Below, one piece after another: positions 1-6,000 of a stretch of DNA of 36,735 nt. The DNA is from a virus. Lineage: Duplodnaviria > Heunggongvirae > Uroviricota > Caudoviricetes. The position numbers were made by a program. The DNA lies in IMG/VR virus record IMGVR_UViG_3300045988_080861, positions 1 through 36,735 of that record, one strand, 5' to 3'. Each line of letters starts with the position of its first letter. Position 1 is the first letter of the stretch.

Positions 1-3000
1 CTCATAGATAAAAAATCGCCCTCACACTGGAGGGCAAAGAAGATTTCCAATAATCAGAACAAGTCGGCTCCTGTTTAGTTACGAGCGACATTGCTCCGTG
101 TATTCACTCGTTGGAATGAATACACAGTGCAGTGTTTATTCTGTTATTTATGCCAAAAATAAAGGCCACTATCAGGCAGCTTTGTTGTTCTGTTTACCAA
201 GTTCTCTGGCAATCATTGCCGTCGTTCGTATTGCCCATTTATCGACATATTTCCCATCTTCCATTACAGGAAACATTTCTTCAGGCTTAACCATGCATTC
301 CGATTGCAGCTTGCATCCATTGCATCGTTTGAATTGTCCACACCATTGATTTGTATCAATAGTCGTAGTCATACGGATAGTCCTGGTATTGTTCCATCAC
401 ATCTTGAGGATGCTCTTCGAACTCTTCAAATTCTTCTTCCATATATCACCTTAAATAGTGGATTGCGGTAGTAAAGATTGTGCCTGTCTTTTAACCACAT
501 CAGGCTCGGTGGTTCTCGTGTACCCCTACAACGAGAAATCGGATAAACTCTATTCACCCCTACAGAGAGCAAAAGAGAAACGCCGATGAACAACTCATGG
601 TGGCAGGAACTAATGCATTTTTTCCTGCAAGGAATGACACTTAAACAGTTGATTCATATGCTAATCATCCTGATCATATTGATTATTGTTATGCCGGTAA
701 GCGTAAAAGAATGGATAAACCTGCATAGTCCAGAAATCCTTCCTCATTACTGGATGTATTACATCCTGTTGTTTTGCGTTAGCTATGTGCTTAACGGCGT
801 TGTTAATTCCGCTTATCACGCTGTGACTGAAAGAATTGAGGTATTCGCTGCTCAGAAGCGCAAATCTAAAGAAGAAAAATATGTGCAAGATTTGTTTGAT
901 TCGTTAACTCTTGGAGAAAGAGCGTATTTGGCATTCGCTGTAGCCGCTAATAACCAGCTACAAACGGAAAAGGGCGCTCATGAATCAATTTCATTGCTCA
1001 AAAAAGGACTCCTCGTTCGAAGGCCTCCTGCTGTTGGATATCCTGATACCGACCGTTTCGTTATCCCTGAAAGCTATAGACATGAGTGCTACATTAGGTT
1101 TGCCGGGAAGGCAGACAGCCTTATGGATGAACTTATCGCTCAGGATAAGCATGGCAAAAACAAGTAATTAGCAAATGAATTTATCATCTCGCCGTCAGTT
1201 GTTTTGATTTCCGGTAGCCTGCCGCGTAAAGAGCTACGTTCGGAAGACAAGTTGAACCTTCATATTTTCTGGTCAACGTTGTCAGAGTTATCACTTCTGC
1301 TCTCATTGCTGGTTTGAGCTTGCATTGCAAGACCACTCGTGAAGGGGTTGGCCTGTGTAGCTTGTCGGAGCTGATCGCCTCCTGACTTTGCAGATTTGCG
1401 CGACGAGCTCTACGGCGAGAAGCTGCGGTGCCTTTAAATTCTGTTTTTCTGGACATGGATTCCTCCCGAATAAACTTTGGCGATGCAATCTCGAAGCTCC
1501 TCCTGAGACGGTTGCTTCGGCATTGCATCCCACAGCTTATGTGGTTGGGTGATCTGGCTTTTCAGCCACGTAGTCGAGAGTCGACGTTGTTTAAAGAGCC
1601 TGCCAGTCTGTTCCATTTGGCTTCCAGCGTCCTGCTGACGGTTAAATAGTACGATATGTACTTTACAAGATCAATACAATTTGTTGTAAGTTGGCGTGGT
1701 TTTTTATAACGCTTTGTATTTAATAGTGTTGTTTTTTAGCGTGGATGTATTGCCTCGGCGATGTAAGGAGAGATCAGAATTGCGTGGTTTAGTGGGTTGC
1801 ATCTATTTATTTTTCAATAAATATAATTGGTTATGTGTTTTTAGGTGGGCGAACGTGAGGCAAAGAAAACCCGGCGCTGAGGCCGGGTTGTATTATGCTG
1901 CAAGTCTCTTAACCCAAGTCTCTCTTTTGGAGAATGGTAGAACTTGGCTTGATTCATGGAAGAGTAAGGAGAGTTGTTGCATTTGATCACCAATTGCTTC
2001 GCTGTCTATAACAACAAATCTGTTGTTATACTCCTCACTTGAAGCTTTAAGATCAATTAGTTTCCCAAGCAATGAGTAAGCACTATTCCAGCTTCCTCCG
2101 TGTTTCACGCTTGATGTAAAAACGTATTTAGGTATGTCGGTTTTTATTGTTACAGGGACGGTAATTTGATGTCCACTCAAGCCATATACGTTTTCACGAA
2201 GAGAAAGTGCGTCTCTAAGCTCTGTGTGATATAGATAATCAATAACCATACTTTCAAACTTTTCAGCTTGAACTGGCTGATACCAGTCTAACGACAAAGT
2301 TGATGCGAGTATACCAGCTCTAATTATGTTCGATGTAATCGCACCGACATCCTTTTCTGTTGCCCAAGCAATGATTTCTCCTCGAGCATTGAGTTCTGCG
2401 CCTTCTTTAAGCAGTAATTGTCGTATCTCATCAAGTCGTTTTTTGGTAAGCGAGATCCCTCTTGCCTCCATATTCATTAAGGCATCGCATCTGTCACTAA
2501 CTAAATACCTACCATTGACTTCACGGATAAAGGCACCGACATGCTCTCCATCATCACAGTAAGTGAATGGACTGATAATTCTCAAGGTCTTGCCTATTGG
2601 ATGGCATTCGAAACCTAGTTGTGAGATCACTGTTGAGCACATCATATTCCAAACCCCATTTGCCCCGACTCATCTTCAAGCGGTAAAGGTATTCTCCCAG
2701 AGTAAGTTATGTTCAGATGTTTACAGAAGTAATTCCAATACCCTACCAGGTCATCTGGGTTTATGTCATCTTCGATTGGAAACGCTATTCTATCACTATA
2801 GTATCCAGCTTCTTCATAGTATACATGGTAGTGAGCACCGTAAATGATATCTTGGTACTTCGGATGATCGACCTTGTAACTATTCGTGTGTTTGTCAAAG
2901 TGATAGGTATCTACCGCGAAAACCCTCTTGTTATGATAGAAAGCAATAATATTTATTTTAGGGTAAGAAATCGGGTCATCAGGTTCTGAATCCTGATCTG

Positions 3001-6000
3001 GTTTCCATTTCAGTTCAAACTTTAGCCCTTGTATAGGTATACAATCCTCATCCAAGGGGATGATATGGGCTTGTAGCCACATATCAGAGCGACTTGGTTT
3101 CTGTTTCCATTTAACGCCAGAAAAGTTAACTATTTTTTTACAATAAAGTACTTTATCAACTTCTACTTGGCTTGGCTGATAATCATCTATTTTTGCCAAT
3201 GTTTACCGCCCTGTAAATTGTAGATAAAAGTGGTTTCATCACCCAAACGTCTCTTCAGGCCATTGGCTGGCGATAACTTTCCCCACAACGGAACAACTCT
3301 CATTGCATGGGATCATTGGGTATTGTGGGTTTAGTGGCTGTAGAAACACCTGACCGCTATCCCTGATCAGTTTCTTGAAGGTAAATTCATCACCACCAAG
3401 TCTGGCTATGCAGAAATCGCCGGGCTCAACAGCTTGCTCAGGGTCAACCAGAATTAACATCCCGTCAGGAAAGCTGGGTTTGGAACCTGTTGGTGCGGTC
3501 ATTGAGTTACCTTCAACCTCAAGCCAGAATGCAGAGTCACTGGCTTTTTTGGTTGTGCTTACCAATCTCTCCGCATCGCCTTTGGTAAAGGTTCTGAGTT
3601 CTGGAGAGAACATCCCAGCCTGAACATGAGAAAAAACAGGGTACTCATATTGTTTTTTAACTGGGGCCGATGAGTATTCGCCAACAGGTGAAAATGTCCC
3701 GTCGTGGTTGAATGATATGTTATCAATACCAAGGTATTTAAACACCACACCAATATCACTAAGAGATGGATGACGAGATCCGCGCAACCAGTGTCCAATC
3801 CCACCCTGCGTCATACCTAGCTCTTCGGCTAACTTCTCTTGAGTTATGCCGAGCTCTTTCATTCTGGATCTAGCCAGTTCATACCATTTCATTTTCATGT
3901 CCTTATTATTACGCTCTGTACTGGAACCATCCATGCACAATGTGTATTTTTACTTGTATTCGCAAAGTACATATTGTATTTTTTTATTCGTGTTTACTAT
4001 GGAGGGCATATGAGCAACCTACGAAAATATCGAGAGTCACTGAATATCTCTCAAACAACACTTGCTAAGGCAGTTGGATGCACACAGGGAGCTATCGGAC
4101 ATTGGGAATCTGGTCGTCGCTTCCCAGACCTTAAAACATGCCGTGCTCTTGTTGCGTGCCTAAACAAGTTAGGCGCAAAAGTCAGTCTTGATGACGTGTT
4201 CCCGCCGGAACACAAAGCCGCTTAATAAGCGGATCCGCTCTTTGTAACAACGGACATTCGTCCTACGTCGCTGAAAAGCGAGTTCCAAGATATCTGACCA
4301 ACTAAGGCCATATGCGTTTCCACGCATACCTTTCAACTAACTATTCACTATTGGAAATCTTAAGAAATGGAAAGAACAAGTTACAGCAAACTATCACAGC
4401 GTGACGTTGATCGCGCAGAAACAGATTTACTTATCAATCTGTCAGCTATTACCCAGCGCGGTCTGGCAAAGATGATTGGCTGTCATGAATCGAAGATAAG
4501 CAGAACGGACTGGAGATTTATTGCTTCGGTCTTGTGTGCTTTCGGAATGGCATCAGACATCAGTCCGATTAGCAGGGCTTTTAAGTATGCGCTTGATGGA
4601 CTCACCAATAAAAAACGCCCGGCGGCAACCGAGCGTTCTGAACAAATCCAGATGGATTTTTAACTGCTTTCTATGGAGTTAATTATGGCAAAAAAACCTA
4701 CACCAGACCAGGTAAAAAAGATTCGTTCCGGCATTACCAAGAAAATACGGTTTGAGGTTTTCAAGCGCGATGGCTTCAAATGCCAGTACTGTGGGAGTTC
4801 TGCGCCAGACGTCATCCTTCATGTCGACCATATCAACCCAGTTAGCAAGGGTGGCGATAACGACATGATGAACCTTATTACTTCTTGCGATAGTTGTAAT
4901 GGCGGGAAAAGCGACAAACTGCTCAGCGATAACTCAATAATGGAAAAGCAAAGGCAGCAACTCCAGGAACTTAATACCAAGCGAGAGCAACTGGAGATGA
5001 TGATCAAGTGGCGAGATGGTCTTAAGAGCCTGAAAGACGATGTTGTTGATATTGTCGCTACCAAAATTGACGACTGCATTGCACCATTTACTGTTAATGA
5101 CAATGGGCGAAAATCTATCAAGAGATGGCTTCGAATATATAAGCTTGAAGAAATCCTCGATGCGATTGAGATTGCCGCAGATAAAAAACTCACCCAAGAA
5201 ATAACCCATGAGCTTACTGGTGAATTCTTTGAGTACATCCCTCGCATAGCAGCGACAAAAAGAAAACCGCCAAAAGAACAAAGGATTCTATACATCAGAG
5301 GAATCCTTAAAAACCGCATATATATCAATCAAAACCATGTAATGAGTTATCTCAAGGCATGGCTTTCATACGACTTAGATCTCGATGAACTTACTGAGTT
5401 TGCGAAAACAGTACCTAACTGGACAACGTTCAAGGAGTGGGTATCTGAACGCATTCGTGAAGCTCAGGAAGAACTCCCGTACTAAAGGTGGACAAAATGG
5501 CACGTTCAAGAAATATCAAACCAGGCTTTTTCACCAATGATGAATTAGCTGAGTGTTCTCCATATGCCCGTCTCCTTTTTGCCGGGTTATGGACTATTGC
5601 TGACAAAGAAGGGCGGTTGGATGATCGCCCAAAGAAAATTAAAGCAATGGTACTGCCTTTCGATGATGTGGACTGCAATGATCTGCTTCAGCAGCTTCAC
5701 AGTCACAAATTCATCAACCGATATCAGGTAAATGGCGGCTCATATATCCAAATCAATAACTGGAAAAAGCACCAGAACCCTCACTGCAAAGAAGCAGCCA
5801 GTGAGATACCAGAACCAGTAGAGAACAATAACAGCACCATGCAAGTACAGTGCAAGGACGATAAAGAGGAAGAGAAGGAGGATGCCGAATCACTACAAGT
5901 CATTGAAAACAATGGAGCACCAGAAAAGCACCATGCAAGTACAGTGCAAGAACCAGTAGAGAACAGTTTAAATCCTGCTGATTCCCTTAACCTGATTCCT

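What the first reader, a model, noticed from the sequence alone, without database searches (positions are those of the whole stretch)
1893..3199. Unassigned two-gene cassette in the cI-downstream (rexAB-equivalent) slot
Two ORFs (185 aa, then 250 aa) lie immediately downstream of cI on the same strand, overlap start-to-stop by 4 nt, and are followed by a rho-independent terminator (1861-1887) before nutL and N. This is the position rexA-rexB hold in lambda, a locus lysogens express with cI and that in lambdoid prophages commonly carries exclusion or anti-phage cargo. Hand counts on short samples give roughly 38 percent GC here against roughly 60 percent in the tail genes, suggesting foreign origin. 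I see no Walker, HEPN, PD-(D/E)xK or other catalytic motif and cannot place either protein in a family, so a function is unproven.
Basis: partly seen in the sequence, partly recalled or inferred. Interest (0 to 1): 0.85.

Follow-up and report, generated by a model that had tools for sequence, protein, structure and literature searches.

The report
Prophage two-gene candidate anti-phage cassette
Two overlapping genes just after the prophage repressor gene are real, always travel as a pair in that spot in many prophages, and are most likely an untested anti-phage defence pair that two published computational screens had already flagged.

Summary
ORF A (2642-3199, 185 aa) and ORF B (1893-2645, 250 aa) lie on the minus strand 39 nt after cI. 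They overlap by ATGA and are followed by an intrinsic terminator (1889-1858), then PL/nutL/N.

The window is a lambdoid phage, 100% identical here to phages ev207, ev017 and PhiR57_1. The cassette occurs in about 240 of 5426 complete E. coli genomes, including Nissle 1917 and CFT073.

- B is DUF1828 (a YbjN/type III chaperone-like fold) plus a DUF1829-like domain with a restriction-endonuclease fold. The canonical D...(D/E)xK residues are indeed absent.
- A is a small beta-rich protein with no recognisable fold, a weak DUF6978 match and an invariant D/H/N/HxH cluster.

Both proteins weakly match the two subunits of PADLOC candidate PDC-M24. The exact proteins (WP_001062368.1, WP_000968518.1) are listed as "predicted novel defense gene" in DefensePredictor (Science 2026) but were not tested there.

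In all 99 surveyed loci with B, A sits directly upstream and overlaps it, downstream of at least 20 different repressor types, from E. coli to Aeromonas and a Pseudomonas phage.

Best reading: a lysogen-expressed two-protein defence candidate of unknown mechanism. It is not a Rex homologue. Function is unproven.

The parts
3239..3934 (-). cI repressor, the first gene of the presumed operon. The ORF listing extends it to a TTG at 3940; the deposited annotation uses 696 nt.
   Evidence: HTH_3 (E 2e-10) plus Peptidase_S24 (E 1e-28). Annotated as cI in PhiR57_1.
3895..3985 (.). OR operators with the divergent PRM and PR promoters (inferred source of the cI-A-B transcript).
   Evidence: Coordinates transferred from the depositor's 'putative' operator and promoter features in the 96.5%-identical Stx1 phage AP005153 (offset +130). 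Cro starts at 4010. Not tested here.
3200..3238 (-). 39-nt spacer between cI and A, without a terminator.
   Evidence: Sequence. No terminator-like site was found here.
2642..3199 (-). Gene A, 185 aa (WP_001062368.1). Soluble, acidic, beta-rich protein with a weak DUF6978/PDC-M24A-like C-terminal core. Invariant residues are K22, W31, R92, D97, N106, H123, H125, F158 and P173, and the C-terminal GQ-x-hydrophobic tail is conserved. The start codon is TTG.
1893..2645 (-). Gene B, 250 aa (WP_000968518.1). N-terminal DUF1828 domain (about residues 1-120, YbjN/type III secretion chaperone-like fold) plus a C-terminal DUF1829-like domain (about 125-250, restriction-endonuclease fold without the canonical catalytic residues).
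1858..1889 (-). Intrinsic terminator closing the cI-A-B unit (equivalent in position to lambda tIMM).
   Evidence: stem 1889..1868 with 8 pairs (6 G-C), then a T-rich tail.
1677..1752 (.). OL operators and PL region. This is the boundary of the cassette, not part of it.
   Evidence: Coordinates transferred from the depositor's 'putative' features in AP005153. Not tested here.

Best explanation
A and B form a two-gene accessory ('moron') operon of a lambdoid prophage. It is transcribed in the lysogen together with cI from PRM and ends at the terminator after B.

I read it as a two-protein anti-phage (superinfection exclusion or abortive infection) system. It is a prophage-borne, divergent branch of the uncharacterised DUF6978-like + DUF1828/DUF1829 pair that PADLOC lists as candidate PDC-M24.

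**Proposed working (inferred, not shown).**
- The two proteins are made in a fixed ratio through translational coupling and form a cytoplasmic complex.
- B's N-terminal chaperone/YbjN-like domain is a protein- or peptide-binding sensor or docking module. It may hold A's conserved C-terminal tail or a phage protein.
- B's C-terminal endonuclease-fold domain has lost the canonical D...(D/E)xK residues, so it more likely binds nucleic acid or regulates than cuts in the classical way.
- A, with its invariant Asp/His/Asn/His-x-His cluster, is the better candidate for a metal-dependent catalytic or ligand-binding effector.
- Infection by another phage would trigger the complex and block that phage.

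**What is shown and what is inferred.**
- Shown: gene reality, pairing, operon layout, conserved position, folds, family relations, and prior computational defence predictions.
- Inferred: co-transcription with cI, complex formation, the defence function itself, and the roles assigned to each domain.
For: - **Operon anatomy.** The 39-nt cI-A gap has no terminator, A and B overlap by ATGA, and a terminator follows B directly.
- **Obligate pairing.** In 99 of 99 loci with a B homologue, an A homologue lies directly upstream and overlaps it: by 4 nt in most clades and by 13 nt in the ED1a-type clade. The identities of A and B co-vary (Spearman 0.95).
- **Pairing holds at great distance.** A relatives at 21-25% identity still precede a DUF1828 protein. 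A Pseudomonas D3-like phage has an unannotated A-like ORF overlapping its B-like gene.
- **Conserved position.** The pair sits immediately downstream of prophage repressors from at least 20 sequence clusters, both S24 cI types and an HTH-only type. In three clusters one small gene lies in between.
- **Purifying selection.** dS is saturated and dN/dS is at most 0.08.
- **Defence signal, part 1.** A matches PDC-M24A (E 5e-4). B matches PDC-M24B over its full length (E 5e-10). The match is repeated in divergent family members. PDC-M24 was defined from genes embedded in BREX, DISARM or type I R-M loci.
- **Defence signal, part 2.** Both exact proteins pass DefensePredictor's cut-off; their accessions were verified on the Nissle 1917 chromosome.
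- **The slot holds such cargo elsewhere.** hicAB sits there in mEp234 and HK106. A RexAB-type system sits downstream of the repressor in a P. putida prophage. The experimentally validated system DS-34 consists of a cI gene plus a hypothetical protein.
Against: - No experiment on this pair is known to me. It is absent from the tested sets in DefensePredictor Tables S6 and S7. PDC-M24 is explicitly untested.
- I could not read Brenes & Laub 2025, which may or may not have tested it.
- The PADLOC and Pfam matches of A are weak and partial: 18 bits for PDC-M24A, and 22 bits for DUF6978 against a cut-off of 29.6.
- B lacks canonical nuclease residues. Both proteins are acidic, which does not favour non-specific DNA binding.
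- The near-invariable link to repressor genes could reflect a function tied to lysogeny control rather than defence.
- No A-B complex was modelled.
Confidence: 0.6

Rival explanations
1. B is a genuine DNA endonuclease that directly cuts incoming phage DNA, in a restriction-like or Can2-like way. A is its specificity subunit, inhibitor or activator.
Against: Family-wide invariants in the domain are G155, S157, G158, H159, P164, T177, W186, G194, D198 and R209. There is no conserved acidic residue at the start of the second strand, and K181 varies (K/R/Q/S/N). hmmscan does not find DUF1829 at E<=1. No modification partner is present. The protein is acidic.
Confidence: 0.15
2. The pair is a toxin-antitoxin-like addiction module whose main role is to stabilise the prophage by killing cells that lose it, with no role against other phages.
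For: It is a tightly coupled two-gene unit with overlapping reading frames. A bona fide TA pair (hicAB) occupies the same slot in mEp234 and HK106. DUF1829 occurs in the non-kinase partner (DS-6B) of the HipA-like kinase in HipAD (DS-6), which DefensePredictor hypothesises to work as a TA-like system.
Against: Neither protein matches a known toxin or antitoxin family, and neither has a DNA-binding antitoxin domain. There is no promoter of its own above chance. At 185 and 250 aa both proteins are larger than typical type II partners. TA systems in prophages often act as defence anyway, so this rival overlaps the best explanation.
Confidence: 0.12
3. The pair modulates the prophage's own lysis-lysogeny switch or induction (as RexA is reported to do in lambda) rather than excluding other phages.
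For: Adjacency to a repressor gene is kept even in relatives at 21-25% identity and across at least 20 repressor clusters. A non-defence role of RexA at PRM is cited in PMC12894663.
Against: The pair combines freely with unrelated repressors, including an HTH-only type without an S24 domain. That argues against a specific repressor or operator partner. About two thirds of E. coli genomes with this cI allele lack the pair: 776 genomes carry the allele and about 240 carry the cassette. PDC-M24 was seeded from at least one instance embedded in a BREX, DISARM or type I R-M locus; I did not examine the context of any PDC-M24 member. The cI operon is simply the one prophage operon expressed in lysogens.
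Confidence: 0.1
4. It is a host-fitness moron unrelated to phages, for example affecting stress tolerance, colonisation or virulence.
For: It is common in extraintestinal and probiotic B2 strains such as CFT073, S88 and Nissle 1917. No catalytic function has been assigned.
Against: It is found in prophages of very different hosts: Aeromonas, Thorsellia, Klebsiella, Yersinia, Photorhabdus and a Pseudomonas phage. This fits a phage-centred function. Two defence predictors flag it.
Confidence: 0.08

Closest known systems
PADLOC candidate system PDC-M24 (Payne et al. 2024 preprint, 'guilt by embedding'; untested)
   Same: It is a two-gene unit. A's C-terminal core hits PDC-M24A, and B hits PDC-M24B over its full length. 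The domain content is the same: DUF6978-like plus DUF1828.
   Different: The matches are weak (18 and 37 bits). A carries an extra N-terminal part of about 80 aa. This branch lives in prophage immunity operons, whereas PDC-M24 was seeded from genes embedded in BREX, DISARM or type I R-M loci. No activity is known for either.
Lambda RexA/RexB
   Same: Same genomic slot: downstream of cI, on the same strand, closed by a terminator before OL/PL (the lambda layout is textbook knowledge). It is also two genes expressed in the lysogen.
   Different: There is no sequence relation: no Rex family hit at E<=1. RexB is a multi-pass membrane protein, whereas A and B have no membrane segment. The gene sizes and order also differ.
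HipAD / DS-6 of DefensePredictor (the DS-6B partner carries DUF3037 + DUF1829)
   Same: It is a validated E. coli defence pair in which one protein carries a DUF1829-like domain (and Table S8).
   Different: The partner there is a HipA-like kinase and the N-terminal domain is DUF3037. Here there is no kinase, and the N-terminal domain is DUF1828.
hicAB in the cI-downstream slot of phages mEp234 and HK106
   Same: Same slot in phages of the immunity type that also carries the 51%-identical variant of this pair. It is also a two-gene unit.
   Different: The proteins are unrelated: HicA is an mRNA interferase toxin and HicB is its antitoxin.
Can2/Card1-type and type II restriction PD-(D/E)xK nucleases
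   Different: There is no CARF domain. The canonical catalytic residues are not conserved. Sequence identity is 10-13%.

Membership tests
Lambda RexAB | Sequence homology to RexA and RexB | tested here: not met
   hmmscan against Pfam at E<=1 gives only DUF6978 (A) and DUF1828 (B). PHROGs gives phrog_2017 and phrog_1960, both of unknown function.
Lambda RexAB | One partner is a multi-pass inner-membrane protein (RexB) | tested here: not met
   The maximum 19-residue Kyte-Doolittle mean is 0.45 for A and 1.19 for B. Both are acidic and soluble.
Lambda RexAB | Located downstream of cI in the same transcription unit, ending at a terminator before OL/PL | tested here: met
   Co-transcription itself is inferred.
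PADLOC PDC-M24 | First protein matches a PDC-M24A model | tested here: inconclusive
   E 4.8e-4, 18.1 bits, covering residues 104-163 only. The match is repeated weakly in 7 of 10 distant relatives and in the ED1a-type variant. PADLOC's own thresholds were not available.
PADLOC PDC-M24 | Second protein matches a PDC-M24B model | tested here: met
   E 4.7e-10, 37.5 bits, residues 2-249 against model positions 4-254 of 256. The Pseudomonas phage homologue also matches.
PADLOC PDC-M24 | The two genes are adjacent on one strand | tested here: met
   99 of 99 loci.
PADLOC PDC-M24 | Protects against phage | not testable with these tools
   PDC systems are described as untested candidates.
Pfam DUF1828 (PF08861) | Score above the gathering threshold | tested here: met
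   33.5 bits against a cut-off of 22, residues 26-110.
Pfam DUF1829 (PF08862) / PD-(D/E)xK clan | Profile match to DUF1829 | tested here: inconclusive
   hmmscan finds nothing at E<=1. Published HHpred in DefensePredictor Table S5 gives 98.8% for residues 155-241 of the identical protein.
Pfam DUF1829 (PF08862) / PD-(D/E)xK clan | Restriction-endonuclease core fold | tested here: met
Pfam DUF1829 (PF08862) / PD-(D/E)xK clan | Conserved catalytic D ... (D/E)xK residues | tested here: not met
   The invariant residues of the domain are G155, S157, G158, H159, P164, T177, W186, G194, D198 and R209. K181 is variable.
Pfam DUF6978 (PF22398) | Score above the gathering threshold | tested here: not met
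   22 bits against a cut-off of 29.6, covering only the last third of the model. Relatives score 15-24 bits. This indicates a distant relation, not membership.
Type II toxin-antitoxin | Recognisable toxin family and a DNA-binding antitoxin with an autoregulated promoter | tested here: not met
   No such family hits in Pfam, NCBIfam or PADLOC. No promoter-like site above chance. Toxicity was not tested.

The most novel reading that the evidence does not exclude
A-B is a mechanistically new two-protein immune system. A would be an enzyme of a previously unseen fold, using the invariant Asp/His/Asn/His-x-His site. B would keep it in check or aim it, using a chaperone-like peptide-binding domain fused to a catalytically degenerate endonuclease fold. 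The trigger would be a protein of a superinfecting phage.

If so, this would also be the unidentified 'other factor' of E. coli Nissle 1917 prophage 3 that Bury et al. 2018 inferred behind that strain's complete resistance to lambdoid phages.
Probability: 0.2. Interest if true: 0.75.

Novelty: new variant of a known kind. Interest (0 to 1): 0.55.

Why it matters
- **Prevalence.** The pair is carried by about 4-5% of complete E. coli genomes, including the probiotic Nissle 1917 and the model uropathogen CFT073. Relatives occur in prophages from Yersinia to Aeromonas and Pseudomonas.
- **Open mechanism.** Neither protein has a known activity, and one has no recognisable fold. If it protects lysogens, it would add a mechanistically open system to the short list of defences carried in the repressor operon.
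- **Possible practical relevance.** It might help explain phage resistance of strains used for therapy or targeted by it.
- **Limit on novelty.** The prediction itself is not new. What remains is the experiment and the mechanism.

Tried and rejected
- **Rex homology.** Rejected: no family hits and no membrane segments.
- **Sequence search of solved structures.** Profiles of both families gave nothing better than E 0.2, and the hits looked spurious.
- **NCBIfam.** No meaningful hit.
- **Plasmids.** No B homologue in 72,556 plasmids.
- **Low GC as proof of foreign origin.** Rejected, because the whole early region is AT-rich.
- **An internal promoter before A.** Promoter-like hits are at or below chance (5 found, 6.8 expected).
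- **A uniform 4-nt overlap in every locus.** My first count was an artefact of using the tblastn start. The ED1a-type clade overlaps by 13 nt.
- **The ED1a-type prophage having lambda immunity.** I first took it that way. The DNA search shows it is HK97/mEp234-type immunity.
- **Brenes & Laub 2025.** It could not be read. Searches for the protein accessions in the paper library found nothing.

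
Full report
**1. The observation**

- ORF A is at 2642..3199 (-), 185 aa. ORF B is at 1893..2645 (-), 250 aa.
- The junction reads ggaatATGAtg, so A's stop and B's start share 4 nt.
- cI (HTH_3 plus Peptidase_S24) ends at 3239, 39 nt before A. No terminator-like site lies in that spacer.
- A G+C-rich hairpin with a T-run lies at 1889..1858, 3 nt after B's stop.
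- Further on come the OL/PL region, a boxA/boxB-like nutL (read, not tested), N at 1184..1528 and, on the other strand, sieB.
- A is 38.2% GC and B is 40.6%, against 54-58% in the late genes. The whole early region is 42.9% and sieB is 41.2%.

**2. Where the window comes from**

The region 1600-4300 is 100% identical to Escherichia phages ev207, ev017, PhiR57_1 and PhiR63_2. The cassette with its terminator is at least 99% identical in 250 of 5426 complete E. coli genomes, 239 of them over the full length. These include ATCC 11775, S88, CFT073 and Nissle 1917. On the Nissle chromosome RefSeq names the products WP_001062368.1 (A, 'hypothetical protein') and WP_000968518.1 (B, 'DUF1828 domain-containing protein').

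**3. They are real, paired genes**
- B has homologues at 47-84% identity in Salmonella, Yersinia, Erwinia, Serratia, Photorhabdus, Providencia, Pectobacterium, Klebsiella, Aeromonas and Thorsellia. A has a matching set.
- Against eight homologous loci, synonymous sites are saturated while dN is 0.11-0.40 for B and 0.21-0.68 for A. dN/dS is about 0.08 where it can be computed.
- I collected 99 loci holding a B homologue: 80 from IMG/VR plus genome and phage loci. All 99 have an A homologue directly upstream and overlapping B. The overlap is ATGA in most clades and 13 nt in the clade represented by E. coli ED1a.
- The identities of A and B to the window proteins co-vary (Spearman 0.95). A changes about 1.5-2 times faster than B.
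- A profile of the A family found only 20 cluster representatives at E<=0.001 among 1.84 billion proteins. The most distant ones I looked up (21-25% identity) are again followed by a 231-258-aa protein, annotated DUF1828 in all but one case (L104, no Pfam hit on record). The two genes usually overlap by 4 nt.
- A Pseudomonas D3-like phage (PP083311) has a B-like gene at 29.5% identity. An unannotated A-like ORF overlaps it by 4 nt (hhalign probability 96%).

**4. The position is conserved, the neighbour is not**
- The gene upstream of A is a prophage repressor in nearly all loci. These repressors fall into 23 clusters at 60% identity, of which at least 20 are recognisable repressors.
- Of 10 cluster representatives scanned, seven have Peptidase_S24 (six also a detectable HTH) and one is an HTH-only repressor of Rac-like prophages; the other two were the DUF3024 protein and a 137-aa protein with no hit.
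- In three clusters one small gene lies between the repressor and A: a DUF3024 protein, a membrane protein, or a 216-aa protein.
- Conversely, the same repressor goes with other cargo. The window's cI allele is in 776 complete E. coli genomes, but the cassette is in only about 240.
- Phages sharing both flanks carry a 283-aa gene (2G7b) or ORF b63 (Stx1 phage) instead.
- HK97-immunity phages carry gp48/49 (HK97), hicAB (mEp234, HK106) or a 51%/40%-identical variant of B/A.
- Stx1a phage LC645425 carries the identical cassette behind a different cI. The shared DNA runs from window 1760 to 3268.
- The slot is therefore a cargo hotspot, and the pair is one mobile occupant of it.

**5. What the proteins are**

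*B*
- It scores above Pfam's threshold for DUF1828 (residues 26-110).
- Its AlphaFold model (pLDDT 82) has two domains.
- The published HHpred annotation of the identical protein gives DUF1828 at 99.5% and DUF1829 (PDDEXK clan) at 98.8%.
- The residues conserved across the family in the C-terminal domain are G155, S157, G158, H159, P164, T177, W186, G194, D198 and R209. No acidic residue or lysine is conserved at the canonical positions.

*A*
- It matches phrog_2017 (unknown function) and, below threshold, the last third of DUF6978.
- Across relatives down to 21% identity the invariant residues are K22, W31, R92, D97, N106, H123, H125, F158 and P173, with H104 and G121 nearly invariant. The disordered C-terminal tail keeps a GQ-x-hydrophobic ending.
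- This looks like a metal- or ligand-binding or catalytic site plus a docking tail. That is an inference.

*Both*
- Both proteins are acidic and have no membrane segment.
- A's start codon is GTG or TTG in 27 of 28 distinct upstream variants. This suggests deliberately weak initiation.

**6. Relation to known systems**
- There is no relation to RexA/RexB beyond the slot.
- In PADLOC-DB, A hits PDC-M24A (E 5e-4) and B hits PDC-M24B over its full length (E 5e-10). The same pairing of hits recurs in divergent members.
- PDC-M24 is one of 145 untested candidates derived from genes embedded in BREX, DISARM or type I R-M loci.
- DefensePredictor (Science 2026) lists both exact proteins, in one transcription unit, as 'Predicted novel defense gene' (log-odds 4.90 and 5.64; cut-off 4). 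Neither accession occurs in the tables of tested units or results.
- That paper validated DUF1829 in a different pair, HipAD. It also validated a 'cI plus hypothetical protein' unit, DS-34.
- A RexAB-type pair downstream of a Cro/CI repressor protects P. putida.
- I could not read Brenes & Laub 2025, whose phage collection seems to include PhiR57_1. I cannot exclude that the pair was tested there.

**7. Best explanation and rivals**

*Best explanation (confidence 0.6).* This is a lysogen-expressed, two-protein anti-phage candidate, a divergent prophage branch of the PDC-M24 kind. I think a sensor-effector complex is most likely. B's chaperone-like domain would bind a peptide (A's tail or a phage protein). 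B's degenerate nuclease fold would act as a nucleic-acid-binding or regulatory module. A would be the probable active component.

Only the anatomy, the conservation, the folds and the prior predictions are shown. Expression from PRM, complex formation and the function are inferred.

*Rivals.*
- A true nuclease in B (0.15).
- An addiction or TA module (0.12).
- A modulator of the prophage's own switch (0.10).
- A host-fitness moron (0.08).

The free combination with unrelated repressors and the R-M/BREX context of relatives argue against a switch-specific role, but they do not exclude it.

**8. Novelty and score**
- The kind, defence cargo in the repressor operon, is well known.
- The protein pair is not homologous to any validated system, and its mechanism is open.
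- The defence prediction for these very proteins is already public.
- I therefore rate it a new variant of a known kind, with interest 0.55.
- It is an attractive experimental target because of its prevalence, its presence in Nissle 1917 and CFT073, and A's unassigned fold. It is not a discovery in itself.

Noticed in passing
window 30252-31910: An Arc-like repressor gene (30252..30626, -) and a P22-type antirepressor gene (30936..31910, +; P22_AR_N and P22_AR_C domains) are inserted between tail genes L (29537..30235) and the K-like JAB/NlpC gene (31926..32702). GC is 41-47% here against 53-58% around it. It looks like an immI-like antirepressor module sitting in the tail operon.
   Followed up: partly
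window 4673-5485 and 7598-8209: There are two HNH endonuclease genes in the early-right region. One lies directly after cII (HNH; weak PtuB-like PADLOC hits). The other is an HNH_3 + AP2 homing-endonuclease-like gene in the lowest-GC stretch of the window (35%).
   Followed up: partly
window 3197-3199 and homologous loci L001-L101: Gene A starts with GTG or TTG in 27 of 28 distinct upstream sequence variants across the family (only one uses ATG), and the Shine-Dalgarno sequences are weak. This is a conserved non-ATG start, which suggests that A's translation is kept low.
   Followed up: partly
window 4321-4663: The cloning and qPCR primers for the 'phage repressor (pr)' gene of E. coli Nissle 1917 prophage 3 (Bury et al. 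2018) match window 4321-4339 and 4564-4581 exactly. That is the cII gene (4367..4663), not cI. The same prophage carries the A-B cassette, and that paper inferred a further unidentified resistance factor in it.
   Followed up: partly
L021 2920-3504 (Pseudomonas phage VB_PaD_phPA-G, PP083311.1): An unannotated 194-aa ORF homologous to A (hhalign probability 96%) overlaps the annotated B-like gene by 4 nt. It lies downstream of the CI-like repressor and of a 216-aa gene with a weak PDC-S48 hit.
   Followed up: yes
window 3239-3934; L015-L019: At 60% identity the window's cI clusters with the HK97-type cI of the ED1a-type prophages, even though the two have different cro genes. From memory, its C-terminal domain looks almost identical to that of lambda cI. 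This suggests that repressors with swapped N-terminal domains share a C-terminal domain, and that this shared domain serves as the recombination boundary of the cargo slot. Not tested.
   Followed up: no
window 172-372 and 586-1167: A ral antirestriction gene (-) and a sieB superinfection-exclusion gene (+) flank N. The left arm therefore already carries two other host-takeover or exclusion functions next to the cassette.
   Followed up: partly
window 9553-10230: A 225-aa ORF in the nin region gives weak hits to PADLOC single-gene candidate PDC-S05 (E 2.5e-6).
   Followed up: no
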